From the NCBI GenBank assembly GCA_024698885.1, contig JAILQQ010000054.1, positions 619-64,618 of the forward strand: a stretch of DNA of 64,000 bases, written 5' to 3'. The translations under genes were made by a program, and so were the position numbers. Below, piece after piece: positions 7,528 through 62,875 of the stretch (position 1 is its first letter; every line of letters starts with the position of its first letter). Below the pieces are notes generated by a model. The model made no database searches. It had not been told where the DNA came from and saw nothing but the letters and a program-made list of their open reading frames with translations. This DNA comes from Lachnospiraceae bacterium (GTDB taxonomy: Bacteria > Bacillota > Clostridia > Lachnospirales > Lachnospiraceae).

Positions 7528-7655
7528 AGAATAGACTTATATCATGATTGAGGCTTCAAAAGTCACATCGTTCGGGGGTGTACAATTTTCAGGAAAGACT
7601 GAGCAGATCAACGTTTCCTTATGGAAATCATAAAAACCGCGAAAAGGAGTTAGCT

Positions 7656-9713
7656 ATGAAATTCAAAAAAATCAGTTCCCGTATGCTGGCCATCATCGTT
7701 CCGATCCTGATCCTGTCCATGGGGGTTATGACCGTGATCAGTGTCAGGGATTCCAGCAGCACGATCACCGAACAGATCAACGAACGCATGACCTCCGAGC
7801 TGAACGCGGCCGAGAAAGGCATCGAAGAAAGCCTGTCAGGCGTGACCGCCATGGCGGAAACCATCTCCGGCGCCGTAAGCTCCACCTATAAGGCGATGGG
7901 ATTGCCGTCCTTTGAAAAAATGTTAGCGGGGATCATCACAAGCAATGATATGGTCTTAGGCAGCGGCCTCTGGTTTGAGCCCTTTGCCTATAACAAAAAT
8001 AAGGAATATGTAGGCCCCTACATCTATAAAGACGGCGGTTCTACCGTCGTGACCTATGATTATGAGGGCCCGGAATATGACTATTTCTCCCAGGAATACT
8101 ATACGGCACCGAAGGCATCCAAAAAAACGGTCATTACGGATCCGTATTACGACCCGACCTCCGGTATCGTCATGTCCTCCTGCTCAACGCCGATCATCAA
8201 TGACAAGAGTGAATATGTAGGCTGTGTCACAGTCGATATGGAGCTTTCCTCGATATCGGAGCTGGTGGAAGGGATCAAGGTCGGAAAAAACGGCAATGCG
8301 ATCCTCCTTGACTCAAACGGCATCTTCTTAGCCGGTGTGTCCGGGGATAAGATCGAAGCCGCCGCCAATATCCAGAACGAGAGCAATGCGTCTCTGGCAG
8401 CCGCCGGAAAGCTGATCATGTCAAACGAAAAAGGCTCCACGACCTATACCTCTGCAGAGTTTGGTCTGGAGGATATCTACTATACAACGATACCCGCCAC
8501 GGGCTGGAAGGTCATGATCCAGATGCCGCGTTCCGAAACACAGGCGCCGGTAAAGCAGCTGGCCCTCATCATGATCGTCATCGCCGCGGCGTTTATCATT
8601 CTCGAAATACTGATCGTCATCCTGCAGGTACGGAGTATCGCCAAGAGCATCGGCAAGGTGAAGAATTTCGCCGGGACGCTCGCGGAGGGTGATTTCACGG
8701 TTTCACCGATCGAGGTCAGATCTGTCGACGAGCTGGGTGTCATGAGTACCTCCTTAAACGACATGTATGACAGCAACAAGGGCGTGATCAGCAGTATCGC
8801 CGACTATTCGAAGGAGATCGATGAAGCCAGCAGACGCCTGTCTGACTCGTCCAACGAATTAAACGATCAGTTTGATACCATCCAGAATCAGATGCACAAT
8901 GTAAACGGCGCCATGATGACCACAAGCGCCGCGACACAGGAAGTGAACGCTTCCACAGAAGAAGTGCTTTCCAACGTGAACCTCTTGGCCGGAGAAGCGG
9001 AATCCTGCATGGAGATGAGCCGCGAGATCATGGAACGCGCGGGCGACATCGAGCAGAAGAGCCGCAAGTCCTTTGATGAAGCGCAGAAGCTGACCACCGA
9101 GTTCTCCGAGAGGCTGGCGGAAAGCATCAAAAACGCGGAGGTCGTCGATACGATCAGCATGATGGCAGACGATATCTCCGGTATCGCGGGGCAGGTCAAT
9201 CTGCTTTCGTTAAACGCCTCCATCGAAGCGGCCAGAGCCGGAGACGCCGGCAGAGGCTTCGCGGTAGTCGCGACCGAGATCGGAAATCTGGCAGGCTCCA
9301 CCTCGGAAACCGTTTCCAGGATCCAGGAAACGATCCGGCAGGTGCAGGACGCCTTCGGGGAATTAAAGGATTCCGCCGGCGGGATCCTCGATTTCGTACA
9401 GAATACGGTGGCGCCGGATTATGATAACTTTGTCAGCGTAGCCGAGCAGTACGGAAATGACGCCAAGAGCTTCGAGAATGCCAGCAGCAAGATCTCCCAG
9501 ATGTCTGACAATATCAAGTCCATCATGAGCGAGGTGACGGACGCGGTACAGAATATCGCGGAAGCGACTCAGGATACGACGGATATCAGCTCACAGATCA
9601 TGAGCTCCATCGAAACAGCCTCCGAGCAGATCACGGATGTTTCCTGCATGTCCTCCTCGCAGCAGCAGATCGCTGACAGCCTGGCGGATACCGTCGGTAA
9701 GTTCAAACTGTAA
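7656..9713 (+). CDS. Methyl-accepting chemotaxis protein (Cache-like sensor, HAMP, signalling domain)
   Basis: The [15 protein letters not shown] start at 7656 follows AAAAGGAG. A transmembrane segment, a ~280-aa extracellular domain, a second transmembrane segment and a HAMP region are present. The signalling hairpin [31 protein letters not shown] is conserved. Confidence 0.93.
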
Positions 9714-9715: not shown

Positions 9716-9755
9716 TTGCGCCGATCCGGTCGGATCCTCCGACCGGATCATTTCC
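9716..9755 (-). repeat. Intergenic hairpin repeat (H3-type module with GATCATTTCC tail)
   Basis: TTGCGCCGATCCGGTCGGATCCTCCGACCGGATCATTTCC. The stem GATCCGGTCGGA/TCCGACCGGATC belongs to the repeat family described in the findings. Confidence 0.7.
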
Positions 9756-14903: not shown

Positions 14904-14965
14904 CAGATCGGCGCAGAGAGGAAATGATCCGGCCCGGAAGACGGAACGGATCAACGCAGAAAGGA
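14904..14965 (+). repeat. Intergenic hairpin repeat, the only copy in plus-sense orientation, ending in the trpB SD
   Basis: CAGATCGGCGCAGAGAGGAAATGATCCGG...CGGATCAACGCAGAAAGGA. It is the reverse complement of the motif seen next to minus-strand genes. It sits between trpF and trpB. Confidence 0.7.
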
Positions 14966-16962: not shown

Positions 16963-18444
16963 TCATATCTCCTTCGGAAGCGGTGTCTCTGCCGTCTCCA
17001 TAAATGCGCTCAATCTCTTTTTTGCCTCCGCGATGGAAAGGTTGGTTCCCGCGCCGGCCACACATCCGCCCGGACAGGCCATCCCCTCGATGAGGCACCC
17101 CTGCTTCAGCCCGGATTTTGCAAGCGTCAGCATCTTGCGGCACTCCGCCAGTCCCTCCGCGTGCTCGATATGGATCTCCGTGTCGGGGTATTTGGCGCGG
17201 ATACATTTTTCAATGGCGCTCGCTACCCCGCCTGCCGCACCGTAGCCTCTGGCGGCACCGGATGCGTCCTGCAGGCCATCCTCCGGCGTCACCTCCTCCG
17301 GATTGATGCCTTTTGCGTCAAAAATACCTAAAAGCTCCTCGTAGGTAATCACAAAATCCACGTCCGAACGCACGGTCCTTCTGCTGGCCTCCAGCTTCTT
17401 CGAAGCGCAGGGACCGATAAATACCACATCCGCGTCCGGATGCTCCTTCAGGATCTCCCTGGCGGTAGCCACCATGGGCGTCAGTTCCCTCGAAATGCTG
17501 TCAATGGTTTCCGGGAAAAAGAGCTTTGCTAAGTACATCCAGCTCGGACAGCAGGAGGTCAGCAAGAACGGGACCTCCTTTGTGCTCACCTTCTCCACAT
17601 AATGCTTGGCTTCCGCCACACAGCCGATATCCGCGCCGATAGCGGTCTCGACCACATCGTAAAAACCTAACTGCTTCAAAGCGGTTTTGACCTGTGCCTC
17701 CGTTGCGTTGCCAAACTGGCCGACAAAGGAGGGCGCTAACTCCGCGATCAGCTTCTTTCCCGACATTAACGCTTTGATCAGCTGGAAGATCTGGGATTTA
17801 TCCGCGATAGCGCCGAAGGGGCAGTGTACCATGCACTGTCCGCAGGAAACGCAGGTCGTCCGGTCGATATCCGCTCTTCCGTATTCATCACTGACGATCG
17901 CTCCCAACCCGCAGGCATCCGCGCAGGGACGGCGCTTATGGGAGATCGCGTCATACGGGCAGACACTGTGGCATTTCCCGCATTTCACGCATTTATCCTG
18001 ATCGATAAAGCTTTTTCCGTTTTGGATTGAGATCGCTCCCTTCGGACAGACCTCCACGCAGGGATGCGCGACGCACCCCATACACTGGTCCGAAACGATA
18101 TACATATTCTCCGGGCAGGCGTTGCAGGCGGAAGGGATGACCTGTAACAGGGGCGGCTCATAGTATTTTTCCGCCACATTCGATTCCTCCACCCCGGCGC
18201 TGACAGCCACCGGTTTGTTCTCCGGTCTTAATTTGATCCCGAGAGCCAGCCGCAGCCGCTCCCTGATCACGGCCCTCTCCCGGTAGATATTTCCCCAGTC
18301 TTCCGAAGAATCCATGCTGCAGAGCTCATAAGGAAGCATCTCGATATCCTCCTTCAGATTCTTCGAATGATAGGCTAGCTCCGCTACGGCCTTAAAGATC
18401 ATATGTCTGGTCTTTCTGACGTTTGTGTCCAGTCCTCTCTCCAA
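16963..18444 (-). CDS. [FeFe]-hydrogenase, monomeric ferredoxin-domain type (group B-like)
   Basis: H-cluster motifs TSCCPSW, GPCASKKLE and MACPGGCVAG, plus several CxxCxxCxxxCP clusters. TTG start behind GGAGAGAGGGAG. Confidence 0.85.
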   Translation of the reverse strand: MERGLDTNVRKTRHMIFKAVAELAYHSKNLKEDIEMLPYELCSMDSSEDWGNIYRERAVIRERLRLALGIKLRPENKPVAVSAGVEESNVAEKYYEPPLLQVIPSACNACPENMYIVSDQCMGCVAHPCVEVCPKGAISIQNGKSFIDQDKCVKCGKCHSVCPYDAISHKRRPCADACGLGAIVSDEYGRADIDRTTCVSCGQCMVHCPFGAIADKSQIFQLIKALMSGKKLIAELAPSFVGQFGNATEAQVKTALKQLGFYDVVETAIGADIGCVAEAKHYVEKVSTKEVPFLLTSCCPSWMYLAKLFFPETIDSISRELTPMVATAREILKEHPDADVVFIGPCASKKLEASRRTVRSDVDFVITYEELLGIFDAKGINPEEVTPEDGLQDASGAARGYGAAGGVASAIEKCIRAKYPDTEIHIEHAEGLAECRKMLTLAKSGLKQGCLIEGMACPGGCVAGAGTNLSIAEAKKRLSAFMETAETPLPKEI

Positions 18445-18462
18445 ACTCCCTCTCTCCTTTCC

Positions 18463-18679
18463 CTGCGCCGATTCTACTTTTCAGACGGATCATTTCCTCT
18501 CTGCACCGATCTGCCCCGCAGATCGTGCGCTTAGGCATGAACTTCAGTTCATGCCGATCCGGTCTGTTTTTCAGACCGGATCATTTCCTTATCTGCGCCG
18601 ATTTGCTCGCAAATCGTGCGCTTAGGCATGAACTTCAGTTCATGCCGATCCGGTCTGTTTTTCAGACCGGATCATTTCC
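18463..18679 (-). repeat. Tandem modular three-hairpin repeat (one degenerate copy plus two 92-bp units)
   Basis: The units start at 18501 and 18593. Each contains H1 GCGCCGATyTGC..GCArATCGtGCGC, H2 GGCATGAAC-TTCA-GTTCATGCC and H3 GATCCGGTCTG-TTTTT-CAGACCGGATC, followed by the ATTTCC tail. Confidence 0.9.
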
Positions 18680-18685: not shown

Positions 18686-20794
18686 TCAACTTTTCTCTAG
18701 TCGGAAGCAGACCGCCTTCAGGTCTTCGTCAAAGATATATCGGAAAACACCGTCCTTAAGCGTATACTTCTCTTCTTTATAAGAATAGACATCCTTTATC
18801 TCATAATCTGCGGGAACAGGGATCCGGATCTCCTCCCCCTGTGCCCCGTGGAAGCCGTGAAGCAGAAGATAGGCTTCTGTTTTCTCCATGTTCTCCCGAA
18901 GGATCCCCTGCCATCCCTGCGGATGCCGGTATCCTGTCATTTTCGTCCCGTAATAACAGCTCCGTCCCTTTTTGATGACCGGAACCAGCCTTTTGTAAAA
19001 CGCAATGCCGTCCTCGATCAGCTTCCACTGATCGGCGGAAAGATGCAGCACATCTCCCGAAACGCACATCCTTCCGAGAAAGGTATTGGCGATGGAATAC
19101 GCGATCCGTTTCAGGCTGTCCGTTTCCCGGATCACGGCCCAGATCTGGGACTGCCTGGGCAGGATCACCCGGTGGAGGTTTGCCGCGATGATCGGGATCT
19201 CCTCGCATTCATGGGCGTCCGAGAACGAAGCCATCGCGCATTTCTGCATCATCAAAGGCTCCAGCTTATGGCCGCCCGAGGCACAGTTTTCAATGATGAT
19301 GCCCGGGATCTCCTGCTTTATTTTTTCCACAAAGGAAACCGAAGCCTCCTGATTCTGCCGAAGCCCCTCTCCCAGTGATTCCGCTCCGTCACAGCCGATC
19401 CCGGCTGTATCGTTGCAGTCTATTTTTATGTACGAAAAACCGTACGCTTTTAACGTCCCGATAACCTTTTCCGTCAGGTATTCCTGAACCGCGTCCTGCC
19501 TTAGATCCCAGAAACGTCGCGAAGTCGTCGTCAGAACCTGCCCGTCCCTTTGTAAGAGATGCTCCGTATCCTGATACGCCTCTGACGCGGAGCCGACGTT
19601 GTCGATCTCAAACCAGAGCCCGGGTTTCATCCCGGCTTCCCGGATCATTGCCGTTGTCTTCAAAAGTCCTTCCGGGAACAGTTCCTTCGAAACGTTATAG
19701 TCTCCCATCGAGAGATCCCAGGGAACCTCCGGCATTTTATACCAGCCGCAGTCGATCACAAAATAGGAAAAGCCCTTGTCCCGGATCGCTTCGACGATCG
19801 CCGCGATATTTTCGTGAGAGGGATTTCCCCAGGTCGTACAGTATTCGTTAAACAGCACCGGAAGACTCTGCTCCGTATCCGGTCCTGCGTCAAGTGTGCT
19901 GTCAAGGGCGGAGGTCAGTCTCCGGAAGATCTCCTCCTTATCCTCCCCACCGTAAACGGAAAGGAAAGCTTCGGGCGTCTTAAATTCCTCTCCGGGAAAA
20001 ACATCCTTCATCCAGTGCCCGAATTCTCTGTCCGCAAGGCCGCCCGAGATCTGCGCCTCTTCCCCCCTTCTGTAGACCTCCATCTGCCAGGAAGCGTTAT
20101 GGGCGACCGCCGCCCCCCAGAAAAGGTGATTGACACTGTCTTCGACCGCCATCACCGGAAAAAACCTGTTCACAGCCAGTGATCCTACCGCGCCGAAGCG
20201 TTCGCAGCGCACGGCATGACCGGTCCAGGAAGGCTCTAACTGCAGATCCTCAAAGGGGATGCTTTCCTTCCTTCCCTCCATGCTCCATACGCTCCGGATC
20301 CGGTGAAGGATCAGCGTATCCTTCCCGTCCTCTTCCATGAGGGGCGAGATCTTCCCTAGCGAAAAGCTCGACAGAAGCTCAAGGCTGACCTTCCTCGCCC
20401 CCTTGTTTTTAAAAATCGTGAAGCTTCTAAGCGCTCTGCCGCCTTCCGTGTAGACAAGGTGGTGGTGCACGCTTAAGCCCCTTTCATCCTTTAAAACGGT
20501 AACAATGTCCGTCTCATCCCCCTGCTTTTTCACCTGCTGGGCATCATAATGAAACAGGCCGGAAGCATCGTCCGTCCTGAGGGAAACGCCGGGAGAATAG
20601 CAGCCGGTATAGATATCTCCGGCAAGCTTTACCTGCACCAGGTTATCCGGATGGTCGTGCCCGGCATCGATCTGCCGCTCCTTCGCCTCAATCCCCGCGG
20701 GCATAAGGAGGAGCTCCGCGTTTTTCTTTGCGTCGTCCGTATAATACAGGGCCTGCATATCACCCAGCTCATATTTTTTGATCAGTTTCGTCAT
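18686..20794 (-). CDS. Alpha-galactosidase (GH36)
   Basis: 702 aa. FVIDCGWY, YIKIDCND and ENCASGGHK match the GH36 catalytic region pattern. Confidence 0.85.
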   Translation of the reverse strand: MTKLIKKYELGDMQALYYTDDAKKNAELLLMPAGIEAKERQIDAGHDHPDNLVQVKLAGDIYTGCYSPGVSLRTDDASGLFHYDAQQVKKQGDETDIVTVLKDERGLSVHHHLVYTEGGRALRSFTIFKNKGARKVSLELLSSFSLGKISPLMEEDGKDTLILHRIRSVWSMEGRKESIPFEDLQLEPSWTGHAVRCERFGAVGSLAVNRFFPVMAVEDSVNHLFWGAAVAHNASWQMEVYRRGEEAQISGGLADREFGHWMKDVFPGEEFKTPEAFLSVYGGEDKEEIFRRLTSALDSTLDAGPDTEQSLPVLFNEYCTTWGNPSHENIAAIVEAIRDKGFSYFVIDCGWYKMPEVPWDLSMGDYNVSKELFPEGLLKTTAMIREAGMKPGLWFEIDNVGSASEAYQDTEHLLQRDGQVLTTTSRRFWDLRQDAVQEYLTEKVIGTLKAYGFSYIKIDCNDTAGIGCDGAESLGEGLRQNQEASVSFVEKIKQEIPGIIIENCASGGHKLEPLMMQKCAMASFSDAHECEEIPIIAANLHRVILPRQSQIWAVIRETDSLKRIAYSIANTFLGRMCVSGDVLHLSADQWKLIEDGIAFYKRLVPVIKKGRSCYYGTKMTGYRHPQGWQGILRENMEKTEAYLLLHGFHGAQGEEIRIPVPADYEIKDVYSYKEEKYTLKDGVFRYIFDEDLKAVCFRLEKS

Positions 20795-26300: not shown

Positions 26301-26957
26301 CTCCACCGCAAGGGTAACGGACTCGCTCTGAGCCGGTGCCGCAGACGGTTCCGCCGGCGCAGGCGCAGGTACAGAAGCGGGTACTGCCTCCCCTGCGGGG
26401 CCGCCTTCCCCTGCGGGGGCCGCTTCCTGCGGTAACGGCGCCTGCATGCCCGGAAGCGTCACGCTCACGGTTTTTGGCTGCGAGCCGTAGGAATAGTTTC
26501 TCATCGTCGCCTCATAGAAATAGCGGCCGGCCCGCTGTAAAAGCCGGTCAAGCTCGGCATGCGCCTCCGGCGCGTCCTCTCCGGATGCCCGGACTCTCGC
26601 CATGAGCCAGTCGATCCGCGCACGGATCGCATCCCCTGCTAACTTCCGCATATTCTCGATATGCGGGAGCATGATATTATCCGTATATTTCTGATGATTG
26701 GCCTTCACAAGCATGGCATCTGCCAGGGAAGCCGCATTTTCCTGCCGCATCCTGGCAAGGATATTGTCCCGGATCCCGTCGATCACGCTCTGGCTTCTGC
26801 CTTCCCCGGCAAAGGCCTCCTCTCCCTGATCCATAAAGGAGCGCAGATCCTCCGTCATGCCTGCGGTATCAAGCTCCCCGGTATCCGGCACCAAAGCCCT
26901 GTCAAAGCCCATAGGCTCCGTTGTTTTTACTTCCGTTTCGAGATCGGTATCAGGCAT
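23337..26957 (-). CDS. 1206-aa hypothetical protein, no recognisable domain, with C-terminal hydrophobic/amphipathic helices
   Basis: The ORF is uninterrupted. Its start overlaps the upstream stop (ATGCCTGA). There is no signal peptide. It has two Ala/Pro linkers. The C-terminus carries the hydrophobic segment ANVADFGVNIASLFGPLSWPFKVVDKAISVIGLVVGKIG. Confidence 0.8.
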   Translation of the reverse strand: MPDTDLETEVKTTEPMGFDRALVPDTGELDTAGMTEDLRSFMDQGEEAFAGEGRSQSVIDGIRDNILARMRQENAASLADAMLVKANHQKYTDNIMLPHIENMRKLAGDAIRARIDWLMARVRASGEDAPEAHAELDRLLQRAGRYFYEATMRNYSYGSQPKTVSVTLPGMQAPLPQEAAPAGEGGPAGEAVPASVPAPAPAEPSAAPAQSESVTLAVEEESFDTRTQRAEDNAYLETLRRENGQFDPARRLGRFQRYRADRQVQAAREKKDTAEYMANAWLRELWGLARNWDRERLRYREGTFKKHYKAYDDHARAYYSFTRSKDWGRMLTGNEAKKIAEYVGGYDYRQIRAIQMLATEDPAARPKLTHVSAKSLSENSLNSEDRANFIKYHQTIVMNAFAEGIHTLGEEQRSGRQRVRMKLMGNFRGYRARNQFTDRTYTALTASGETAQERGKFTRAAYEASTGEAPVGMAAGEMNLTADERGVNGEYLTSEGSAELYEAKIREEGPERTVRGFVYGGRFYSDESAAVTDESAASRPSALSSMVNREKMRLAIRRSDFFRHINAGTIQYYMTYDPDDDLNRAGSEHALALAGPYSPAGAALFLIRAYLAPDSIGAQALHAGHDDETLEQIREKAFAAVQRDTRDHVKHLGVMLLSTEDTALWGIARELAEKTTERYGRGALGRRLDAIPRAGQVMRIALMEEFARDRSFDAAYLRKSFMPEAIQHRGEEIMSRRAGVLSRLTVQQLFYTLFGFSSANVFRASRSYTGAPQTAAAGAPAQAAAVQAAGGQLEAMQFAAMIDGEPVDLNRAREDFVNSYSGLFGQRSGEAGSEGLPSFAREETLRHFGASSSSGKRESAPSGETLSPADYSFNALSTLYAISQFIHSIPRILDKNYQQEQNPDAAFQKKTEIEIDRLSLEATLSACTIAKGIYTFAAKKSPKETGYLLGAVGDIMRAKNAVSSLRFLHQEKNSLQGASLDMKTAMDELARRREALPYLPRDYAQNDRQAMAVAAEHNSFGAVFQERGEWRNWQDRNAARTDLAANVADFGVNIASLFGPLSWPFKVVDKAISVIGLVVGKIGNFSDFMTNFAEMLGDKSYSYPWNATNFDVALNRETGIKNQMYLMDLVRIFSAIDTHCMVHDEQRTDGETLQVINLMRPYLNVAADTGSAEREAAFKSVRLNRLLQAVGAPADWRAVLRSAITQ

Positions 26958-27642
26958 TTTTCTTACCCCTCGGTGCTTTCTTCTTCGGCTGTGCTTCCTT
27001 CTTCGGCTTCGCTTCTTTCCCCGCGCCTTCTTCCGGATCCGGCTGCGTTTTTTTCTCCGGCTTCTCTCCCGCGTTTAATTGACCAAGGTAGTCAAATCGC
27101 TCCTGCAGATCGTTCAGATCCGCGATCGAGTCCAGATAGTCCATGTAAGCCTCGATCGTTATCCTGTCGGGATCATCGCAAAGGAAAAGGATAAAGTCCG
27201 CGAAAAGATCCAGCTGTTCGCCAAGCGTTCCGAGATAAAACTGCGCGTCCTCAAGGGCCGCGTCCAAAGCCATCGGATTCACCGGCATCCGGTAGCTTAA
27301 ATAAACCTGTCTTAGCGGCGCGTAATACCCAAAGCACCCAAAAGAAGGAAAGGCACCGGTGGAGATCACGGTGTTTAAGCTGTTTAAGCCTGTCAGGATC
27401 CCCGGGAGCTTTTCCTCTTCGATCCGCTGCGCCAGTGTGGCATGAAAATGCAGGATCGGGTAGGGCATGTCCGGATAGAAGCCGTCCTCCATGGCAGCTT
27501 CAAAAATGACATCGGTCCCCGATACCCCAAGGTTCCTCGCCATAGACCTGAGAACCCCTTTATGATCCCTGCAGTTGCCGAAAAGCCTTTCAATATTCTT
27601 CTTCAGCTCGTCCTCAAATTCCGCTGTTGATCCTATTGCCAT
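26950..27642 (-). CDS. Hypothetical protein, possibly YbjN / type III secretion chaperone-like fold, with a basic Lys/Pro tail
   Basis: The MAIGSTAEFEDELKK start at 27642 follows AGGAAAA. The ORF-track start at 27687 reads through a hairpin repeat. The fold assignment rests on strand/helix pattern only (ILHFHATLA, LTGLNSLNTV, GCFGYYAPLRQVYLSY). The tail is KPKKEAQPKKKAPRGKKNA. Confidence 0.6.
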   Translation of the reverse strand: MAIGSTAEFEDELKKNIERLFGNCRDHKGVLRSMARNLGVSGTDVIFEAAMEDGFYPDMPYPILHFHATLAQRIEEEKLPGILTGLNSLNTVISTGAFPSFGCFGYYAPLRQVYLSYRMPVNPMALDAALEDAQFYLGTLGEQLDLFADFILFLCDDPDRITIEAYMDYLDSIADLNDLQERFDYLGQLNAGEKPEKKTQPDPEEGAGKEAKPKKEAQPKKKAPRGKKNA

Positions 27643-27655: not shown

Positions 27656-27686
27656 TCTGCGCCAATTTGCCTGCAAATTGCGCGCA
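27656..27686 (-). repeat. Intergenic hairpin repeat (H1-type), directly 5' of an SD
   Basis: TCTGCGCCAATTTGC-CT-GCAAATTGCGCGC. In sense orientation it is followed by CAGACAGGAAAACGGAAATG. Confidence 0.75.
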
Positions 27687-27689
27687 CTC

Positions 27690-29849
27690 CTATATACTTT
27701 GAAACGCCAGCTTTTCAAACTCCTGCGCGCACAGCGGCCGCGAGAAATAATAGCCCTGCACCACCGCGCAGCCCATCTGTTTCAGCATCTGAAGCTGTTT
27801 CTCTGTTTCCACGCCCTCTGCGATCACGGGAACCTGCAGGTTCTCCGCGATGCCCAGGATCAGCTTCACCAGCTGAACATCTTTTTCTTCGTGCTCAATA
27901 TTCTGAATGAACGCCCTGTCCATCTTCAGAACATCGATGGGCATAGAGGAAAGCATATTCAGCGAGGAGTAACCGGATCCGAAGTCATCCATCTCGATCT
28001 CATAGCCGTCCTTTCTCAGTCCGTCGACGACGGTGATCACCTGGTCCGCATTTTCGGTATAGGCGGATTCCGTAACCTCAAGCTTTAAGGTCTCATGCTC
28101 CAGCCGGTTGCGTGCTAAGATCTCTTCCAGCGTATCCGCAAGCTTCGGATCAAATACGTCCACCCGGGAAAGATTGACGGAAACCGGCAGCGTGATACCG
28201 TACTGATCCCGCCAGACGGCTGTCTGTCTGGCCGCTTCCGACCATACGAACTGATCAAGAAGGCTGATCTGTCCGTTCTTTTCAAAAAGAGGGATAAAGT
28301 CACCCGGGGAGATCATGCCAAGCTCCGCGTGATGCCAGCGGACAAGCGCCTCCGCGCTGACAAGCCTCGGCGTATCGGAGCGGATATCATATTTCGGCTG
28401 GTAGAACACCTCGAATTCATTTGTGTCAAGCGCGTGGCGGAGATCGTTTACCAGACGCTGCTCATAGCTCTCCCGCTCACTGACCTTTTCATCATATATG
28501 ATCAGATGCTCCTTGTAATGGCCCCGCGCCATGTTGCAGGCCGTCCGGGCTCTGTCAAACAGCTGCACCGGCTCGAGCTTCTCCCGCCAGGGCATAACGC
28601 CCATGCGCAGCCTGATATTGGCATTGGGCGCAAGCTCATAAAGCTTTGTCTGCAGACGGTCAAAGACAGATTTATATTCCTCCGCGTGAAGACAGTATAT
28701 GTCAAACCGGTCCGCCTCAAATCTTCCCGCGATCCCCTTCCTCTCGGCCGCGATCTGGCGGATCTCTTCTCCCAGTACCTTAAGGACCTGATCCCCGAAC
28801 TCCCGCCCGTTCAGCGCGTTGATCGAATGGAACTGTTCAATGTTCAAAACGATCGCGTCCATCGGCGTCTCCGGATGCTCTCTGAATATCCGGTCGGCAT
28901 ACTGGAAGAAGAATTTCCGGTTATATAATCCGGTCAGATCATCATTCTCCGTCGCTAAGATCAGGTTTTTCGCCTTTCTGACAGCCTGCATGTTCTGTAA
29001 AAGCAGCATCAGGATCACGAAGATCACCACGCCGATCATCGTCGTCAGCAAAACCAGATGATCGATCACGAAATCCATCGGGGTAAGCTTTGCGTCCTCC
29101 GTGATATAGCGGGACAGCATCGCGTTAACATGGGAATCCGGGATCATGCCGATCACCTTGGCCAGAATGGAATAGAGCTCGGTCTGGCCTTTTTTCACCC
29201 CAAAACAGTAATCCATCTCCTGCCCGATGGAAACCGGGGTCAGACGCAGTCTTTCGCATTCCCTGGCGATACTGTTGAAGCGGTAATTGCTGATCAGCAG
29301 GCAGTCCGCGCTGCCCTTCGATACGGCCTTCAGGCATTCCCAGGAATTATTGTAATAAGCGCTCTCCCAGGTGGGAAAATGCTCGTTCAGAAAGGCCTCA
29401 TAATTCGGATTGCCCCTGTTCACGGCTGCGGTCACCTGATCCCCCTTGGCAAACAGGTTGGGATCCGAAAAGCGCACGGCCGCGTACATCTCCGTATCAA
29501 GCAGCGGCGGCGTCATGACCATCCCCTGCATTTCCGCGTCATAGCCGCTGAAATTCGTAGGAAACACGCAGTCGACCTCTCCGGCCTGCAGGGCGTTCAT
29601 CGCGTCCTCTGCCGTGGGATACGCCGTCGTTTCAAAGGAAAGCTTCGCATTCGACATACAATCGGCGGCAGCGATCAGGTAATCCTTTAAAAAGCCCGTC
29701 AGCTCGCCGGTCTCCTCATCTGCGGCGCATAATGCCAGATAGTTATCCTGATACCCGACCCGGATCGTCTGATGGGCGGAAAGCCATTCCAGCTCGCTCG
29801 GCGTCATAAACGCGTTGGCACCGACCCTTCGGATGTATTTTTCATACAT
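27690..29849 (-). CDS. Solute-binding (SBP_bac_3-like) domain, TM, degenerate GGDEF, EAL c-di-GMP phosphodiesterase. Possibly the 3' part of a gene split by an in-frame TAG
   Basis: The GGDEF position reads RFEADRF, which is degenerate. EAL motifs EALVRW, DDFGSGYSSL and QGYYFSRP are intact. One TM (LVLLTTMIGVVIFVILMLLL) is present. There is no signal peptide and no SD of its own. Confidence 0.85.
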   Translation of the reverse strand: MYEKYIRRVGANAFMTPSELEWLSAHQTIRVGYQDNYLALCAADEETGELTGFLKDYLIAAADCMSNAKLSFETTAYPTAEDAMNALQAGEVDCVFPTNFSGYDAEMQGMVMTPPLLDTEMYAAVRFSDPNLFAKGDQVTAAVNRGNPNYEAFLNEHFPTWESAYYNNSWECLKAVSKGSADCLLISNYRFNSIARECERLRLTPVSIGQEMDYCFGVKKGQTELYSILAKVIGMIPDSHVNAMLSRYITEDAKLTPMDFVIDHLVLLTTMIGVVIFVILMLLLQNMQAVRKAKNLILATENDDLTGLYNRKFFFQYADRIFREHPETPMDAIVLNIEQFHSINALNGREFGDQVLKVLGEEIRQIAAERKGIAGRFEADRFDIYCLHAEEYKSVFDRLQTKLYELAPNANIRLRMGVMPWREKLEPVQLFDRARTACNMARGHYKEHLIIYDEKVSERESYEQRLVNDLRHALDTNEFEVFYQPKYDIRSDTPRLVSAEALVRWHHAELGMISPGDFIPLFEKNGQISLLDQFVWSEAARQTAVWRDQYGITLPVSVNLSRVDVFDPKLADTLEEILARNRLEHETLKLEVTESAYTENADQVITVVDGLRKDGYEIEMDDFGSGYSSLNMLSSMPIDVLKMDRAFIQNIEHEEKDVQLVKLILGIAENLQVPVIAEGVETEKQLQMLKQMGCAVVQGYYFSRPLCAQEFEKLAFQSI

Positions 29850-36011: not shown

Positions 36012-36043
36012 TCTGCGCCGATTCGCTTGCGAATCGGATCATT
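36012..36043 (-). repeat. Intergenic hairpin repeat (H1-type), directly 5' of an SD
   Basis: TCTGCGCCGATTCGC-TT-GCGAATCGGATCATT. In sense orientation it is followed by CAGACATAGGAGGCCTTATG. Confidence 0.75.
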
Positions 36044-36130
36044 GTTATTCGTATTTCCTGACCGTTGACTATTATAATTAGCGTAGGCTAACTTGTCAAC
36101 CCTCTTAAACCGCATCCCGGCATTTTTCGC

Positions 36131-36160
36131 CTCTCGCCGATCTGCCTGCAGATCATGCGC
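36131..36160 (-). repeat. Intergenic hairpin repeat (H1-type variant)
   Basis: CTCTCGCCGATCTGC-CT-GCAGATCATGCGC, immediately after the stop of the DtxR-family gene. Confidence 0.65.
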
Positions 36161-36532
36161 TTATCCCCCGTATTTCTCCATATGGGCCTTGACCGCGTGA
36201 AAGGTTTCGTCGCTGATGTAATGCTCGATGCGGCACGCATCCTCCACAGCGATCTTTTCATCCACGCCGAGATTGATAAAAAGCCTGGTCAGCACGGTAT
36301 GCCGTTCATAGATGCGCTTTGCCGTCGCAGCGCCGGCTTCCGTCAGCTTCAGATAGCCGTCATCATCCTTCGTGACAAATCCTTCCTTCTTAAGCACGCC
36401 GATGGCACGGCTGACGGAGGGCTTGGTATACCCCAGATAATCGCTCACATCTATGCTGCGGACGGCCGCCTGTTTCTGCGAAAGCACATATATTGCTTCC
36501 AGGTACATTTCTCCGGATTCCTGTAATGCCAT
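36161..36532 (-). CDS. DtxR/MntR-family metal-dependent transcriptional repressor
   Basis: 123 aa. MYLEAIYVL...TKPSVSRAIGVLKKEGFV is a winged-helix region, and the dimerisation region is typical of the family. Confidence 0.85.
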   Translation of the reverse strand: MALQESGEMYLEAIYVLSQKQAAVRSIDVSDYLGYTKPSVSRAIGVLKKEGFVTKDDDGYLKLTEAGAATAKRIYERHTVLTRLFINLGVDEKIAVEDACRIEHYISDETFHAVKAHMEKYGG

Positions 36533-36554: not shown

Positions 36555-36674
36555 CGACCGGATCATTTCTGCGCCGATTTGCCCGCAAATCGTGCGCTTA
36601 GGCATGATCTTCAGATCATGCCGATTCGGTCTGCTTGCAGACCGAATCATTTCTTTGTTTGCGCCAATCTGCCC
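36555..36674 (-). repeat. Modular three-hairpin repeat, single diverged unit plus partial flanks
   Basis: Same H1-H2-H3 order as at 18501. The paired substitutions keep all three stems intact, for example GGCATGATC-TTCA-GATCATGCC and GATTCGGTCTG-CTTG-CAGACCGAATC. Confidence 0.88.
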
Positions 36675-36756
36675 CAGTTTACCATATATCTCCGCGCTGC
36701 GCAACGGAAGCCCCCGCCTCTTCCAAGGTCCCTGCATGGCGCGGAAAACCGTTAAG

Positions 36757-45413: not shown

Positions 45414-46625
45414 CTAGCGCGGCGGCTGTCCGTTGCTTCCGGGCGGCGTTTCCCCGGGATCCTGAGGCTGTTGCGGCCTCCCGTTCATCTCTGTATCCTG
45501 CGGAGGCTCCGGCGCAGGATCAGAAGGCCCCTCCGGTCTCCCGGTCATCTCTGTCCCCTGCGGCAGCTCCGGGGGAGAATCAGAAGGCCCCTCCGGCCTC
45601 CCGGTCATCTCTGTCCCCTGCGGTTGCTCCGGCGCAGGATCAGAAGGTCCCTCCGGCCTCCCGGTCATCTCTGTCCCCTGCGGTAACTCTGTCGCAGGCT
45701 CCGAAGGCTTCTCCGGTCTCCCGGTCGTCTCTGTACCCTGCGGCAGCTCTGTCGCAGACTCCGAAGGCCTCTCCGGCCGCCCGGTCATTTCTGTTTCCTG
45801 CGGAGGCTCTGTCGGAGGTTCAGAAAGCCCTTCCGGCCTCCCGGTCGTTTCTGTTTCCTGCGGAAGCTCTGTCGCAGGTTCTGAAGGCCTCTCCGGCCTT
45901 TCAGTCATCTCTGTATCCGTCTTTCCGCTTTCCGGCGGTAACGGCGGTGCTTCCTGTCCGTTTTCCGGATATTGTTCCAGCATGATCACCTTCCCGGGGC
46001 TCATGTTCCCGTCATGGGCTCTGGTCTTCAGATCCCGATCCACGATATAGGATTCGCCGTGGATACTCCTGTCCGGGTGCTTCCTGCCCTGCTCTTCGTT
46101 CCAGGCTTCCATTTCTCCTCTGGTTTTCTTTTCAAGCCTCCCGTCGCGGAACAGATGACTGTCTACCGTCATGATGACAGGCGTTTCCTCTCCGATATAA
46201 TCCGCCTCATCCAGCGCGTTTAACGTCATTTCGATCGCGGTATCGATATCCTGCCCCAAAACCTCCGAAGAGATTGTCGAAACGATATCTTCCCCATCCT
46301 CATTATAAGAAGCGAAATCGATCACCCGGTCAAAAAAGTTCAGGTCATACCGCAGGGACGGATTCAGATCCAGCGTAACCGTACTGTAGGCAAAAGTATT
46401 GGCGGAAAAGCTTCCCACAAGGATCAGCACGGCCGCTGCCGCCGCGGTCAGCTTTGCGGCGCGTGAACGGGTAAAGGAAAGAAGCTTCTGCCCCGTTCCC
46501 TGTCCGCTCTCAAACTCGATCGACTGACCGATCCGGTAGCTTTTGTTCCGGATATTATAATAGGTGCCGTCCATCGCCAAAACTGCGGCTCTGTCGCCCT
46601 GAATACTCATTACTACCGCTTTCAA
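45414..46625 (-). CDS. rsgI: RsgI-like anti-sigma-I factor with Pro/Glu-rich tandem-repeat C-terminus
   Basis: TTG start after AGGAGAG. The N-terminus MKAVVMSIQGDRAAVLAMDGTYYNI is an RsgI_N-type domain. A single TM is followed by an LDLNPS motif. There are about 7.5 repeats of 20 aa (TEMTGRPEGPSDPAPE.PQG). Confidence 0.8.
   Translation of the reverse strand: MKAVVMSIQGDRAAVLAMDGTYYNIRNKSYRIGQSIEFESGQGTGQKLLSFTRSRAAKLTAAAAAVLILVGSFSANTFAYSTVTLDLNPSLRYDLNFFDRVIDFASYNEDGEDIVSTISSEVLGQDIDTAIEMTLNALDEADYIGEETPVIMTVDSHLFRDGRLEKKTRGEMEAWNEEQGRKHPDRSIHGESYIVDRDLKTRAHDGNMSPGKVIMLEQYPENGQEAPPLPPESGKTDTEMTERPERPSEPATELPQETETTGRPEGLSEPPTEPPQETEMTGRPERPSESATELPQGTETTGRPEKPSEPATELPQGTEMTGRPEGPSDPAPEQPQGTEMTGRPEGPSDSPPELPQGTEMTGRPEGPSDPAPEPPQDTEMNGRPQQPQDPGETPPGSNGQPPR
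45435..45917 (-). repeat. Coding 60-bp tandem repeat (about 7.5 to 8 units) inside rsgI
   Basis: The near-identical unit CCCTCCGG(Y)CTCCCGGTCATCTCTGTCCCCTGCGG... is visible by eye. The antisense ORF it generates is an artefact. Confidence 0.9.
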
Positions 46626-46640: not shown

Positions 46641-46670
46641 TCTGCGCCGATCCGCCTGCGGATCATTTCC
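46641..46670 (-). repeat. Intergenic hairpin repeat (H1-type with GATCATTTCC tail), directly 5' of the rsgI SD
   Basis: TCTGCGCCGATCCGC-CT-GCGGATCATTTCC, between the sigI stop and the rsgI start. Confidence 0.75.
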
Positions 46671-46685: not shown

Positions 46686-47441
46686 TTACCCTGCATTTTC
46701 ATTTCTGAAATTTGCCGCGTATTCCGAAAGTCCGGGATAATCTCCGTCTAAGATCAGCGCCGTCGCGATCAGGTATTTTCGGAATTTATCAAGAAATTTT
46801 ATGGGCTGGCCGCTCCGCTCCGTAAGCTCCTTCGCCGGCAGGCGGCCGCTGTTTCTCAGAAGCTCCACAAGGGGCGGCGGAAGAAAAAACGAAGTGATCA
46901 CCTTCGCACAGCCTTTTTTTGTCTTATGCGATCTCGGTGAACACTCCGTCAGATCAAAAAAGGAGATATGATATTGCGCAAGCTCCTCCTGTAACGCAAG
47001 GATCTCGTCCCGCAGCGAGTCTTCGCAGGCGTCACCGCCTGTCGCCATCTTATCCTGCAGCTTAAGCTTTAACGACAGTTCCGGATCATCTTCTTCGATC
47101 TCACCCTCGAAAACATCCGGGCTGACCGATATCTCGCCTTCGGTTCTCTTCCGGCTCTGATACAGATTAAGCAGACGACTCTTCATGACAACGGCCGCAA
47201 AACCCCAGAAATCACCCCGGTCGGGGTTATAATGGGTAAGCGCCTCTGAAACCGCCATCAGCGCGACCGACCACTCATCATCGCTCTTCGTGACAGGATG
47301 CCCCGAAATCTTCGCCGAAAGCCGTAAAATATGATCACTTTCCTCCGCAAGGAATGCCTCCCTTTCGGAGACATCCCCTGCCGCTTTCAATGCTCTCTCA
47401 TTATCCTTTTGTGAATTTTCCGAAAAAGTCTGATGCCGCAT
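46686..47441 (-). CDS. sigI: RNA polymerase sigma-I factor
   Basis: The sigma-70 region 2-like segment DEWSVALMAVSEALTHYNPDRGDFWGFAAVVMKSRLLNLY, the SigI-type C-terminal domain and the position directly upstream of rsgI support the call. The start is uncertain, because the ORF overlaps the upstream gene by 41 nt. Confidence 0.8.
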   Translation of the reverse strand: MRHQTFSENSQKDNERALKAAGDVSEREAFLAEESDHILRLSAKISGHPVTKSDDEWSVALMAVSEALTHYNPDRGDFWGFAAVVMKSRLLNLYQSRKRTEGEISVSPDVFEGEIEEDDPELSLKLKLQDKMATGGDACEDSLRDEILALQEELAQYHISFFDLTECSPRSHKTKKGCAKVITSFFLPPPLVELLRNSGRLPAKELTERSGQPIKFLDKFRKYLIATALILDGDYPGLSEYAANFRNENAG

Positions 47442-48141
47442 TCCTTATCCTGGTAAAAAATCCTGTTTCTGTGCGCGATCCTTCCGTATTCCCCGCCGTG
47501 TCTGTATCACAGGAAGTCTCCGCGGATGGTTTCTGATCGGATCCCATCGGCATCGGTGCCTTCATTTCAACCGTGATGCCGTTTTCTCTGAGCGCCGCGA
47601 TCAGCGCTTCTTCCGCTTCTCTTGCGGCAGTTCTGAGCGAATCCAGATCGGTTTCCCCTTCTGAAGAGCCGTCTCCTTCCCTCAAAGCGTCAAATGCTTC
47701 CCGTTCAGCCTCCCGTGCCGATTCATACGCCGCAAGCAGCCCGGAGAGCGTCGACTGTGTCTCCTCATCCTCGATCGAGGAGATCGCTTCCGCCACGGCT
47801 TCCGGATCGATCATGCCGCCTTTTTGTCCGCGCCCCATGGGCGGTGCCTGCTGCCCGTCAGGTGCTTCCCCCTCCGGCAGCTCCGGGCGTTCCCCTTCAT
47901 TCATTTCCGGCAGCTCCGGACGATCCCCCTCGTTCATCTGGGGCAGTTCCGGGCGCTCCCCTTCATTCATTTCCGGCAGCTCCGGACGTTCGCCCTCCGC
48001 GAAAGCTCCCTGTGCCTCTCTGCCGCCGCCCATCCGGTTTCCGTTCCCGGGTGCCGCCAGGGCACAAACGGAAAGGGTCACTGCCAAAATCCCCGTTAAG
48101 ATCGCTGTTGATACTTTTTTACTGTTTTTTACTCTTCTCAT
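47401..48141 (-). CDS. Secreted hypothetical protein with 11-aa GERPELPEMNE repeats
   Basis: The MRRVKNSKKVSTAILTGILAVTLSVCALA signal peptide follows AAAGGAGAG. Four 33-bp tandem repeats lie at 47874..47997. The C-terminal half is acidic and helical. Confidence 0.75.
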   Translation of the reverse strand: MRRVKNSKKVSTAILTGILAVTLSVCALAAPGNGNRMGGGREAQGAFAEGERPELPEMNEGERPELPQMNEGDRPELPEMNEGERPELPEGEAPDGQQAPPMGRGQKGGMIDPEAVAEAISSIEDEETQSTLSGLLAAYESAREAEREAFDALREGDGSSEGETDLDSLRTAAREAEEALIAALRENGITVEMKAPMPMGSDQKPSAETSCDTDTAGNTEGSRTETGFFTRIRNAASDFFGKFTKG

Positions 48142-62863: not shown

Positions 62864-62875
62864 CTTCTCCTCAGA

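What the first reader, a model, noticed from the sequence alone, without database searches (positions are those of the whole stretch)
18463..18679. Modular three-hairpin intergenic repeat in tandem (BOX/REP-like family) between the alpha-galactosidase and hydrogenase genes
**Seen in the sequence.**
- The whole 241-nt spacer is built from one degenerate unit and two near-identical 92-bp units, starting at 18501 and 18593.
- Each unit contains three independent hairpins in fixed order on the plus strand.
- H1 is GCGC-CGATyTGC-(2-3 nt)-GCArATCG-t-GCGC.
- H2 is GGCATGAAC-TTCA-GTTCATGCC.
- H3 is GATCCGGTCTG-TTTTT-CAGACCGGATC, followed by a conserved ATTTCC tail.
- Between the two units, H1 differs by a paired T/C plus A/G change (CGATCTGC..GCAGATCG versus CGATTTGC..GCAAATCG). 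The stem is preserved.
- None of the hairpins is followed by a U-tract in the sense orientation, so they are not classical terminators.
- The array ends in CGGCGCAGGGAAAGGAGAG, which supplies the Shine-Dalgarno site for the TTG start of the hydrogenase gene.

**Inference.**
- The modular structure resembles pneumococcal BOX elements or enterobacterial REP/BIME arrays. I do not recognise this particular sequence family.
Basis: seen in the sequence. Interest (0 to 1): 0.62.

Follow-up and report, generated by a model that had tools for sequence, protein, structure and literature searches.

The report
Hairpin repeat family abutting ribosome-binding sites
The spacer between the alpha-galactosidase and hydrogenase genes is a tandem array of a previously undescribed, high-copy, three-hairpin repeat of rumen Lachnospiraceae, which nearly always lies in one orientation inside transcription units with one end against the next gene's ribosome-binding site.

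Summary
Window 18463-18679 holds one decayed unit and two near-identical ~92-bp units, each with three perfect hairpins.

It is a dispersed family, not a local oddity:
- There are 11 more full, single-hairpin or partial copies in this 64-kb window.
- Copies occur in two other Lachnospiraceae MAGs and seven metagenome contigs.
- Depth in rumen metagenomes is 40-150x that of the flanking genes.

Across 15 full units, 99.3% of stem cells pair and 14 of 29 pairs show compensatory changes.

New findings:
- In about 16-19 of 23 loci the flanking genes' mRNA carries 5'-GGAAAUGAUCC...AUCGGCGCAG-3'. The GGCGCAG end lies 0-6 nt from the Shine-Dalgarno site of the next gene (P ~1e-11).
- The opposite orientation would create a terminator-like hairpin with a T-rich tail.
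- Arrays are head-to-tail only.
- Copy number differs between strains through deletions or duplications at short internal direct repeats.
- The single-hairpin forms are simple deletion derivatives of the full unit.

There is no Rfam, literature, plasmid or phage match, and no transposase in the window.

Best reading: a non-autonomous REP/BOX/MIRU-like interspersed repeat that rides inside mRNAs. How it spreads and what it does as RNA are inferred, not shown.

The parts
18463..18497 (-). Decayed single-hairpin unit. On the + strand it reads CTGCGCCGAT-tctacttttcagac-GGATCATTTCC. It is the 3'-most unit in the minus-strand transcript and abuts the hydrogenase SD.
18501..18588 (-). Full unit W1. 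H1 is 18503-18530, H2 is 18534-18555, H3 is 18556-18582, and the tail ATTTCC is 18583-18588.
   Evidence: (102 bits)
18593..18679 (-). Full unit W2. H1 is 18595-18621, H2 is 18625-18646, H3 is 18647-18673, and the tail ATTTCC is 18674-18679.
   Evidence: (110 bits)
18444..18462 (-). Native purine-rich SD (GGAAAGGAGAGAGGGAG) and TTG start of the [FeFe]-hydrogenase-like gene. It lies directly 3' of the array's GGCGCAG end.
18686..18688 (-). Stop codon of the Melibiase/GH36 gene, 6 nt before the array in the transcript.
9716..9755 (+). H3-type single-hairpin copy, 2 nt after the stop of the + gene 7548..9713 in a convergent spacer. This is the one copy whose forward strand lies in the sense of the adjacent gene, and it has no SD next to it.
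14907..14959 (+). ATCGGCGCAG remnant plus H3-type single-hairpin copy. It fills the trpF-trpB spacer of a + strand operon, so the element motif is on the - strand. The SD and true TrpB start (14972) follow directly.
27657..27690 (-). H1-only copy that fills the spacer between the - genes 27690..29849 and 26950..27642.
36013..36060 (-). H1-type single-hairpin copy in a 5'UTR. It lies just downstream of a 12/12 sigma-70-type promoter (36099->36071) and abuts the SD of the gene that starts at 35998.
36132..36165 (-). H1-only copy. Its UAA linker serves as the stop codon of the DtxR/MntR-type repressor gene 36161..36532.
36556..36680 (-). Array of a truncated tail, full unit W3 (36569-36654) and a TGCGCCAATC remnant. 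It has compensatory variants of H2 and H3. The full unit is absent in related strains (joint 36579->36660).
46642..46670 (-). H1-type single-hairpin copy between the - genes 46686..47441 and 45414..46625. It abuts the SD.
48797..48833 (-). Degenerate copy (remnants of H2 and H1, ending GGGCGCAG) that fills the spacer before the SD of the gene 48284..48784.
49353..49392 (-). H3-type single-hairpin copy in a 193-nt divergent spacer. It lies 12 nt from the ATG (49340) of the - gene.
59846..59880 (-). H1-only copy between the - genes 59917..60969 and 58294..~59797.
62838..62866 (-). H3-only copy. On the - strand, GATCCGGTCTG-AAAA-CAGACCGGAT is followed by TTTTTTT, so it reads as an intrinsic terminator after the gene 62876..63925.

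Best explanation
The array is three head-to-tail copies, one decayed, of a previously undescribed, high-copy interspersed repeat. The family is confined to a lineage of rumen Lachnospiraceae.

**Structure.** A full unit is ~87 nt. On the + strand it reads CTGCGCCGAT-[H1]-ATCG-TGCGCTTA-[H2 GGCATGA..TCATGCC]-[H3 GAT..ATC]-ATTTCC.

**Behaviour as DNA.**
- It amplifies to many intergenic sites.
- It decays by slippage or recombination between its own short direct repeats (GATCYG/CRGATC shared by H1 and H3, TGCGC, TTTGC, ATCGGCGCAG). This gives single-hairpin forms, H1-only or H3-only forms, solo ATCGGCGCAG footprints, and arrays of variable copy number.

**Placement.**
- Copies persist almost only in the orientation in which the host mRNA reads 5'-GGAAAUGAUCC..hairpins..AUCGGCGCAG-3'.
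- The GGCGCAG end sits 0-6 nt upstream of the next gene's Shine-Dalgarno sequence.
- In that orientation no hairpin carries a U-tract, so the operon is read through and the downstream ribosome-binding site stays intact.
- The reverse orientation would place hairpin H3 before a T-rich tail, which would be polar.

**Inferred, not shown.**
- Spread is by a trans-acting enzyme that recognises the hairpins as single-stranded DNA, as for REP/RAYT or IS200/IS605-type elements. Insertion would be directed to, or tolerated only at, the purine-rich SD region.
- In the mRNA the stable hairpins act as barriers to exonucleases. They would protect the 3' end of the upstream cistron and form a 5' stem-loop directly before the SD of the downstream one.
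For: **Repeat and hairpins are real**
-.

**Dispersed family**
- 11 more loci in the window.
- Present in MAGs RUI134 and RUI154 and in seven metagenome contigs, often at contig ends.
- In rumen metagenome X1, depth over the element is 381-1401 against 9-10 on the flanks. 177 contigs were laid, with unrelated loose ends.

**Covariation**
- 99.3% of cells paired, 14 of 29 pairs changed on both sides, 0 of 500 shuffles as good.

**Clade-restricted gain**
- No copies in ~200 kb from relatives (L010-L021, L024).
- The trpF-trpB junction is empty in relatives with 77-91% TrpB identity.
- The rmlA-rmlC junction is empty at 85-89% RmlC identity, holds a solo ATCGGCGCAG at 95%, and holds one or two units in L006 and L007.

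**Orientation and SD adjacency**
- A long ORF starts 5-23 nt after the GGCGCAG end in 19 of 23 loci by script (about 16 on strict reading). No credible case exists in the other orientation.
- Binomial P is ~6e-12.
- The element stays SD-adjacent where the spacer is long (49353, 36556, L002, L004, L009).
- In the metagenomes, flanks left of the unit start end in CTCCTT, ACTCC or CTTCCTC, the reverse complements of SD sequences.

**Reverse orientation is terminator-like**
-.

**Instability between strains**
- Joints 18463->18617, 18463->18526, 18681->18592 (an extra unit) and 36579->36660 occur at single-copy depth. They are bounded by the 5-nt repeats TGCGC and TTTGC.

**Genome-specific stem variants shared by different loci**
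- GGTCTG in the window, GGTCC in L006-L009, GGTCG in L001 and L003.

**Constraint or homogenisation at an orthologous site**
- L006 and L007 share 65 of 65 identical element bases, although rmlC third positions are only 69% identical.
Against: - No insertion event with clean element boundaries was caught. Every strain polymorphism seen is a deletion or duplication between internal direct repeats, which needs no transposase.
- No transposase or RAYT-like gene lies among the small ORFs tested in the window. The rest of the genome is not available.
- There are no terminal inverted repeats and no consistent target-site duplication. AAGGA-like sequence flanks many units, but copy 9716 lacks it on one side.
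- The 100% identity of 65 nt at an orthologous site across about 15% diverged genomes could equally mean purifying selection for a host function.
- Transcription and any RNA effect are untested. Only two low-depth, unstranded metatranscriptome contigs carry related copies.
- G.U versus A.C mismatches show no strand asymmetry (about 8 versus 4, by inspection).
Confidence: 0.6

Rival explanations
1. A host-selected cis-acting RNA module. The hairpins, and possibly the SD-like 5' end AAGGAAAUGAUCC, would be kept directly upstream of ribosome-binding sites because they help the cell. They could stabilise or process polycistronic mRNA (blocking RNase J and 3' exonucleases), insulate the SD from upstream structure, or hold ribosomes near the start in a standby or STAB-SD-like way. 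Spread would be secondary.
For: - One end lies tightly against the SD even where spacers are long.
- 65 of 65 nt are identical at an orthologous site, against 69% identity at third codon positions.
- Compensatory changes occur in all three stems.
- The copy at 36013 sits in a 5'UTR, a few nt after the predicted transcription start and directly before the SD.
- The element occupies 9 of the 14 tandem spacers of 40 nt or more.
Against: - Relatives do without it at the same junctions: trpF-trpB overlaps or has an unrelated spacer, and rmlA-rmlC is empty.
- Close strains lose or gain units.
- Many copies are decayed, with broken stems at 18463 and 49353.
- There is no excess of G.U over A.C on the transcribed strand.
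- The genes served are functionally unrelated.
- No RNA data are available.
Confidence: 0.22
2. DNA-level protein-binding sites of the REP/BIME kind, for example for gyrase, a nucleoid protein or a recombinase. The hairpins or cruciforms would organise the chromosome or replication, and transcription would be irrelevant.
For: - The stems are perfect palindromes with no strand asymmetry in wobble pairs.
- Blocks of sequence outside the stem tips are conserved (CTGCGCCGAT, GTGCGCTTAGGCATGA, ATCATTTCC).
Against: - Orientation follows the direction of the flanking genes, including the one + strand operon (trp) inside a mostly - strand region.
- The position is tied to the SD. Neither feature is expected for a purely DNA-structural site.
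Confidence: 0.06
3. Transcription terminators or attenuators between the two genes.
For: - The H3-only copy at 62838 carries a T7 tract on the transcribed strand and looks like a true terminator.
- On the + strand, H3 plus ATTTCCTTAT is scored terminator-like.
Against: - In the array, and in nearly all other copies, no hairpin is followed by a U-tract on the transcribed strand.
- Copies lie inside conserved operons (trpF-trpB, rmlA-rmlC).
Confidence: 0.04

Closest known systems
REP/BIME elements of Proteobacteria (mobilised by RAYT, an HUH Y1 transposase)
   Same: - Short, high-copy extragenic palindromes that are co-transcribed.
- Stems are kept by compensatory change.
- Subfamilies are genome-specific.
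- They break short-read assemblies.
- There are no terminal inverted repeats and no obvious target duplication.
   Different: - The sequences are unrelated and there is no GTAG head.
- Three different hairpins occur in a fixed order per unit.
- Clusters are strictly head-to-tail rather than alternating or inverted (BIME, REPIN).
- Copies lie mostly upstream of an SD inside operons, not at the 3' ends of transcription units.
- The host is a Firmicute.
- No RAYT was seen, but the genome is not available.
Pneumococcal BOX elements (boxA-boxB(n)-boxC; PMC3049150)
   Same: - Modular, stem-loop forming and intergenic.
- Often co-transcribed with neighbouring genes.
- Length varies between strains.
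- Can create spurious ORFs or extensions.
   Different: - BOX has inverted-repeat ends, proposed to match ISSpn2 (PMC3049150). This family has none.
- In BOX the variable module is boxB. Here whole units repeat and modules are lost by deletion.
- No SD adjacency is reported for BOX in that paper, where such repeats are enriched between convergent genes.
Mycobacterial interspersed repetitive units (MIRU; Supply et al. 1997, as summarised in PMC12548453)
   Same: - 40-100-bp units in head-to-tail arrays of variable number.
- Located in intercistronic spacers of operons.
- One orientation relative to transcription.
- Placed at the translation-initiation region, so that expression of the downstream gene is preserved.
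   Different: - MIRUs carry a small ORF coupled to the downstream start with -4 nt spacing. Here no conserved ORF or coupling geometry exists, because the mini-ORF frame changes with loop length.
- These units are built of perfect hairpins and stop before the SD, not at the start codon.
IS200/IS605-derived palindrome-associated elements (PATE-like MITEs)
   Same: - Hairpins lie close to both ends.
- There are no inverted terminal repeats and no target duplication.
- Placement is strand-specific, next to a short sequence motif.
   Different: - Only 3 nt separate the left end from the first hairpin, which leaves no room for a guide sequence.
- The adjacent motif is a variable purine-rich SD, not a fixed tetra- or pentanucleotide.
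- No cognate TnpA was identified.

Membership tests
REP/BIME (RAYT-associated) | Short imperfect palindromes, extragenic, in hundreds of copies per genome | tested here: met
   There are 12 loci in 64 kb. Depth in the metagenome is 40-150x that of the flanks.
REP/BIME (RAYT-associated) | Conserved GTAG-type head next to the palindrome | tested here: not met
   The conserved flanks are CTGCGCCGAT and ATCATTTCC. There is no GTAG.
REP/BIME (RAYT-associated) | Clusters with alternating or inverted orientation (BIME, REPIN) | tested here: not met
   All arrays are head-to-tail.
REP/BIME (RAYT-associated) | A RAYT gene in the genome, flanked by the repeats | not testable with these tools
   The 10 small ORFs of the window have no Y1 transposase domain. 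The rest of the genome is not in the collections.
BOX-type or MITE (Correia, ERIC, RUP) | Terminal inverted repeats and a target-site duplication (usually TA) | tested here: not met
   The ends CTGCGCC.. and ..ATCATTTCC are not inverted copies of each other. The flanks show no constant duplication.
BOX-type or MITE (Correia, ERIC, RUP) | Modular build with a variable number of an internal module | tested here: inconclusive
   The modules H1, H2 and H3 occur alone or together. The variants are explained by deletions between shared direct repeats, not by a repeated internal box.
MIRU-like intercistronic repeats | Intercistronic, one orientation relative to transcription, tandem units of variable number | tested here: met
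   (9 of 34 tandem junctions).
MIRU-like intercistronic repeats | Internal ORF whose stop overlaps the downstream start (-4 coupling) | tested here: not met
   The AUG in GGAAAUGAUC opens ORFs of different frame and length in different copies. In the array the ORF runs past the TTG start out of frame (sequences, read directly).
IS200/IS605-derived PATE | Subterminal hairpins at both ends, insertion next to a fixed 4-5-nt target, one strand only | tested here: inconclusive
   Hairpins at both ends and strand-specific placement are met. The neighbouring motif is a variable SD, and no clean insertion junction was recovered.
Intrinsic terminator | GC-rich hairpin followed by a U-tract on the transcribed strand | tested here: not met
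   There is none on the minus strand in 18200-18900. It is met only by the H3-only copy at 62838.
Any Rfam family | Score at or above the gathering threshold | tested here: not met
   There are 0 hits in the window. The best e-value hit is RAGATH-28 at 18 bits, against a threshold of 45.3.

The most novel reading that the evidence does not exclude
This would be an element that homes to Shine-Dalgarno sites. Its + strand tail, GGATCATTTCCTT, resembles the 3' end of 16S rRNA (GGAUCACCUCCUU, from general knowledge). In the mRNA its 5' end, AAGGAAAUGAUCC, is accordingly an extended SD look-alike.

Two versions are possible:
- The element finds ribosome-binding sites by base-pairing and inserts immediately upstream of them. 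Each inserted copy then offers a new SD-like target, which would explain the strictly head-to-tail arrays.
- The SD mimic together with the hairpins works as a ribosome standby or STAB-SD-type stabiliser for the downstream cistron.

Either version would be a new way for a repeat to couple itself to translation-initiation regions.
Probability: 0.2. Interest if true: 0.8.

Novelty: new member of a known kind. Interest (0 to 1): 0.5.

Why it matters
- **New territory.** Small interspersed repeats are well studied in Proteobacteria, pneumococci, Neisseria and mycobacteria. I found no description for Lachnospiraceae, a dominant gut and rumen group known mostly from fragmented MAGs.
- **Assembly and annotation.**
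  - The family explains contig breaks: contigs carrying close RmlC homologues are only 936-1838 nt long, and the MAG hits lie at contig ends.
  - It causes systematic mis-annotation. The ATG inside GGAAATGATC gives false N-terminal extensions, such as TrpB called at 413 aa instead of 397 aa.
- **Gene expression.** It creates most of the non-trivial intercistronic spacers in this window. It is therefore likely to shape mRNA stability and relative expression within operons.
- **A testable oddity.** The fixed orientation and SD adjacency have, among the families compared here, a parallel only in MIRUs. The property could reveal either a new insertion specificity or a portable RNA stabiliser useful for engineering Clostridia.
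- **Strain typing.** Variable copy number between strains could serve as a VNTR-type marker.

Tried and rejected
- **Rfam.** The whole window at gathering thresholds gave nothing. The array at E<=10 gave only chance-level hits.
- **Phage and plasmid collections.** No match.
- **Exact look-up of the hydrogenase protein.** Not on record.
- **Synteny route through hydrogenase homologues.** These are 73-82% identical. The loci are not syntenic and carry no family copies.
- **RNA evidence.**
  - No RNA run holds the hydrogenase gene.
  - The element itself is found in one rumen metatranscriptome, as two low-depth unstranded contigs. That is too weak to show transcription or processing.
- **Empty-site search with metagenome contigs over 19.5 kb.** The contigs break at the repeats, so it was largely uninformative.
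- **Promoter inside the array.** None, so that idea was rejected.
- **Conserved peptide encoded by the unit.** Rejected, because frame and length vary between copies.
- **CRISPR, riboswitch and tRNA-like readings.** Not supported by structure or context.
- **Target-site duplication of AAGGA.** It is suggestive at several loci (L002, L004, 49353 and the array), but copy 9716 and the metagenome flanks contradict it. It is left open.
- **Strand of function from G.U versus A.C mismatches.** About 8 versus 4, which is inconclusive.

Full report
**1. What is at the coordinates**

Both flanking genes are on the minus strand. The gene at 18686..20794 encodes a Melibiase/GH36 alpha-galactosidase. The gene at 16963..18444 encodes an [FeFe]-hydrogenase-like protein with a TTG start. 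The 241-nt spacer between them is therefore read on the minus strand.

Tandem Repeats Finder reports a 91-nt period, 2.3 copies and 93% matches at 18478-18683. Two full units start at 18501 and 18593. 18463-18497 is a decayed unit.

Hairpin coordinates are H1 18503-18530 and 18595-18621, H2 18534-18555 and 18625-18646, and H3 18556-18582 and 18647-18673. Each motif is far beyond chance, at 0.00-0.02 expected per window. The array folds at -120 kcal/mol on the transcribed strand, z = -13.

No promoter-like site lies in the spacer, and no hairpin has a U-tract on the transcribed strand. On the opposite strand, H3 followed by ATTTCCTTAT is scored terminator-like.

**2. It is a dispersed family**

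I write the element 'forward' as CTGCGCCGAT...ATCATTTCC.

Motif and covariance-model searches found 11 more loci in the window:
- a third full unit, within the array 36556-36680;
- single-hairpin copies at 9716, 14907, 36013, 46642 and 49353;
- H1-only copies at 27657, 36132 and 59846;
- a degenerate copy at 48797;
- an H3-only copy at 62838.

A 19-mer scan of 185,579 species genomes hit only two Lachnospiraceae MAGs, RUI134 and RUI154, both at contig ends. The window's own genome is not in that collection. A metagenome scan gave seven more contigs, with about 15 further copies.

The window is best represented in bovine and sheep gut metagenomes. In run X1 the flanking genes have depth 9-10, while the element bins reach 381-1401. 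177 contigs were laid, and they continue into unrelated sequence.

About 200 kb from relatives contains no copy. These relatives carry homologues at 73-81% (hydrogenase), 77-91% (TrpB) and 85-89% (RmlC) identity. The family is therefore abundant but confined to one lineage. There is no match in Rfam, phage contigs, plasmids or the searched literature.

**3. The hairpins are maintained**

In an alignment of 15 full units (A1):
- 99.3% of 434 stem cells form standard pairs.
- 14 of 29 pairs change on both sides (35 cells).
- Only three G.U pairs and three mismatches occur.
- No shuffle out of 500 reaches this, and slid controls give 16-40% pairing.

The conserved blocks are CTGCGCCGAT, ATCGTGCGCTTAGGCATGA, TCATGCCGAT and ATCATTTCC. 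Stem tips and loops vary. Because the scans required part of these blocks, their invariance is partly due to ascertainment. The covarying columns were not constrained by the scans.

Wobble versus A.C mismatches (about 8 versus 4 over all copies, by inspection) do not indicate which strand matters.

**4. Orientation and position (new)**

For 23 loci I asked what lies next to each end, in each orientation.
- When the RNA is read as 5'-GGAAAUGAUCC...AUCGGCGCAG-3', a long ORF starts 5-23 nt after the GGCGCAG end in 19 loci. About 16 remain if doubtful starts are dropped.
- A purine-rich SD follows directly. Examples are GCAG-GGAAAGGAGAG..TTG (this array), GCAG-AAAGGATTTATC-ATG, GCAG-AAAAGGAGGG.., GCAG-GAGGAGAAGAAA-ATG and GCGG-AGGATACTAATATT-ATG.
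- In the other orientation there is no credible case.
- With 47 genes and 4.7 kb of intergenic DNA, the chance per locus is about 0.10, so P is about 6e-12 for 16 of 23.

The upstream gene often ends 0-15 nt before the array, so in many operons the element is the whole spacer. It occupies 9 of the 14 tandem spacers of 40 nt or more.

Tight spacers alone do not explain the pattern. Where the spacer is long, the element still sits against the SD and not in the middle. This holds at 49353 in a 193-nt divergent spacer, and at 36556, L002, L004 and L009.

In the metagenomes, sequences left of the unit start end in CTCCTT, ACTCC or CTTCCTC. These are reverse complements of SD sequences.

Orientation follows transcription. 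In the one + strand operon (trp), inside a mostly - strand region, the element is flipped.

There are two exceptions:
- 9716 lies just after the stop of a + gene in a convergent spacer.
- 62838 is H3-only. On the transcribed strand it carries a T7 tract and looks like a true terminator.

Arrays are head-to-tail only. Their junctions, GCAG-(A/AGA/ATAA)-GGAAAUGAU, look like the junction with a native SD.

**5. Dynamics**

Related strains differ at this locus:
- a single unit lacking H1 (joint 18463->18617, X1, at single-copy depth);
- a second variant (joint 18463->18526);
- an extra unit (18681->18592).

At 36579->36660 the full unit is absent in X1 and X5. The end points share 5-nt repeats (TGCGC, TTTGC) that lie inside the family sequence.

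The rmlA-rmlC junction gives a series:
- no element at 85-89% RmlC identity;
- a solo ATCGGCGCAG between the stop and the SD at 95%;
- ATCGGCGCAG plus one unit in L006;
- ATCGGCGCAG plus two units in L007.

Units are thus flanked by direct repeats of ATCGGCGCAG. The same remnant stands at the 5' side of most arrays.

The H1 and H3 stems both begin GATCYG and end CRGATC. Deleting between the 5' arms of an L001-type unit gives GGAAATGATCCGCAAGCGGATCGGCGCAG. That is one base away from the copy at 46642. Deleting between the 3' arms gives the H3-type form seen at 9716. The short forms are therefore deletion derivatives.

All of this shows rapid slippage or recombination. None of it is a clean transposition junction.

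Two further points bear on amplification or constraint:
- Different loci of one genome share stem variants: GGTCTG in the window, GGTCC in L006-L009, GGTCG in L001 and L003.
- L006 and L007 share 65 of 65 identical element bases. Their rmlC genes are only 85% identical overall and 69% at third positions, while H1 differs by compensatory changes.

**6. What it most likely is and does**

*Shown:* a high-copy, lineage-restricted, hairpin-forming interspersed repeat. It was gained at junctions that relatives lack, lies in one orientation within transcription units, abuts the SD, and is unstable in copy number.

*Inferred:*
- It is a non-autonomous mobile element whose hairpins are recognised by an enzyme supplied in trans.
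- Insertion is aimed at, or survives only at, the purine-rich region upstream of start codons.
- The surviving orientation is the one without a terminator.
- Once in the mRNA, the hairpins probably act as exonuclease barriers. At 36013 a copy sits a few nt after the predicted start of a transcript from a 12/12 TTGACA-17-TATAAT promoter and directly before the SD. That is the arrangement of a 5' stabiliser.

No transposase was found among the ten small ORFs tested, and the genome is not available. RNA evidence is limited to two low-depth, unstranded metatranscriptome contigs.

The main rival is a host-selected RNA module. The orthologous-site identity and the SD adjacency favour it. Its absence from relatives, its strain variability and the many decayed copies count against it.

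**7. Comparison with known families**

- *REP/BIME:* it shares the general nature of the elements. It fails on the GTAG head, inverted clustering and usual location. The presence of a RAYT could not be tested.
- *BOX* (PMC3049150): it shares modularity and co-transcription. It lacks inverted ends.
- *MIRU* (Supply 1997, as summarised in PMC12548453): it shares the intercistronic, co-oriented, variable tandem arrangement at translation-initiation regions. It has no coupled ORF and is built of hairpins.
- *IS200/IS605-derived elements:* it shares end hairpins and strand-specific placement. The geometry and the variable neighbouring motif do not fit.

I file it as a new family of the known kind 'small interspersed intergenic repeats'.

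**8. Verdict**

Interest is moderate (0.5). The family is new, and its SD-locked placement is unusual and testable. Its mechanism of spread and its effect on RNA remain to be shown.

Noticed in passing
window 14924-14971; 35999-36115; 49341-49388; 59798-59889: The ATG inside the element's GGAAATGATC, or other in-element starts, gives ORF callers false N-terminal extensions. TrpB is on record both as 413 aa and as 397 aa (P0122 and P0121). The true start is 14972 (MGEKKGRFG). The HlyD-like gene is called at 521 aa but most likely starts at 35998.
   Followed up: partly
window 36161-36165: The TAA stop codon of the DtxR/MntR-type repressor gene (36161..36532, minus strand) is the UAA linker of an H1-only family copy. 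The element supplies the end of the gene.
   Followed up: partly
window 36071-36099 (minus strand): A perfect sigma-70-type promoter, TTGACA-17-TATAAT (12 of 12 matches), lies between two family copies. It would start a transcript a few nt before the single-hairpin copy at 36013-36060.
   Followed up: partly
window 30730-30945: This is an unrelated structured repeat: two 84-bp tandem units (97% identical) within a 94-nt-arm inverted repeat (72% complementary), in a 348-nt spacer. Rfam gives only spurious microRNA-model hits below threshold. It may be a different MITE-like element.
   Followed up: partly
window 45474-45915 and 47873-47996: There are tandem repeats of 60 nt (7.4 copies; also 180 nt x 2.5) and of 33 nt (3.7 copies). 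They lie inside the minus-strand ORFs 45414..46625 and 47401..48141, so these are probably repeat-containing proteins.
   Followed up: no
L014 10001-10320: The 490-aa 'TrpB' of a related MAG (P0123) contains a direct duplication of the first ~140 nt of trpB. This is either an assembly artefact or a real tandem duplication. It is not a family element.
   Followed up: no
window 39720-41075: A 1356-nt divergent spacer contains no ORF of 150 aa or more. I did not examine it.
   Followed up: no
window 18463-18679 versus 16S rRNA 3' end: The + strand tail GGATCATTTCCTT resembles the 3' end of 16S rRNA (GGAUCACCUCCUU, from general knowledge). In the mRNA, each unit therefore begins with an extended SD look-alike, AAGGAAAUGAUCC, part of which is buried in the H3 stem.
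   Followed up: no
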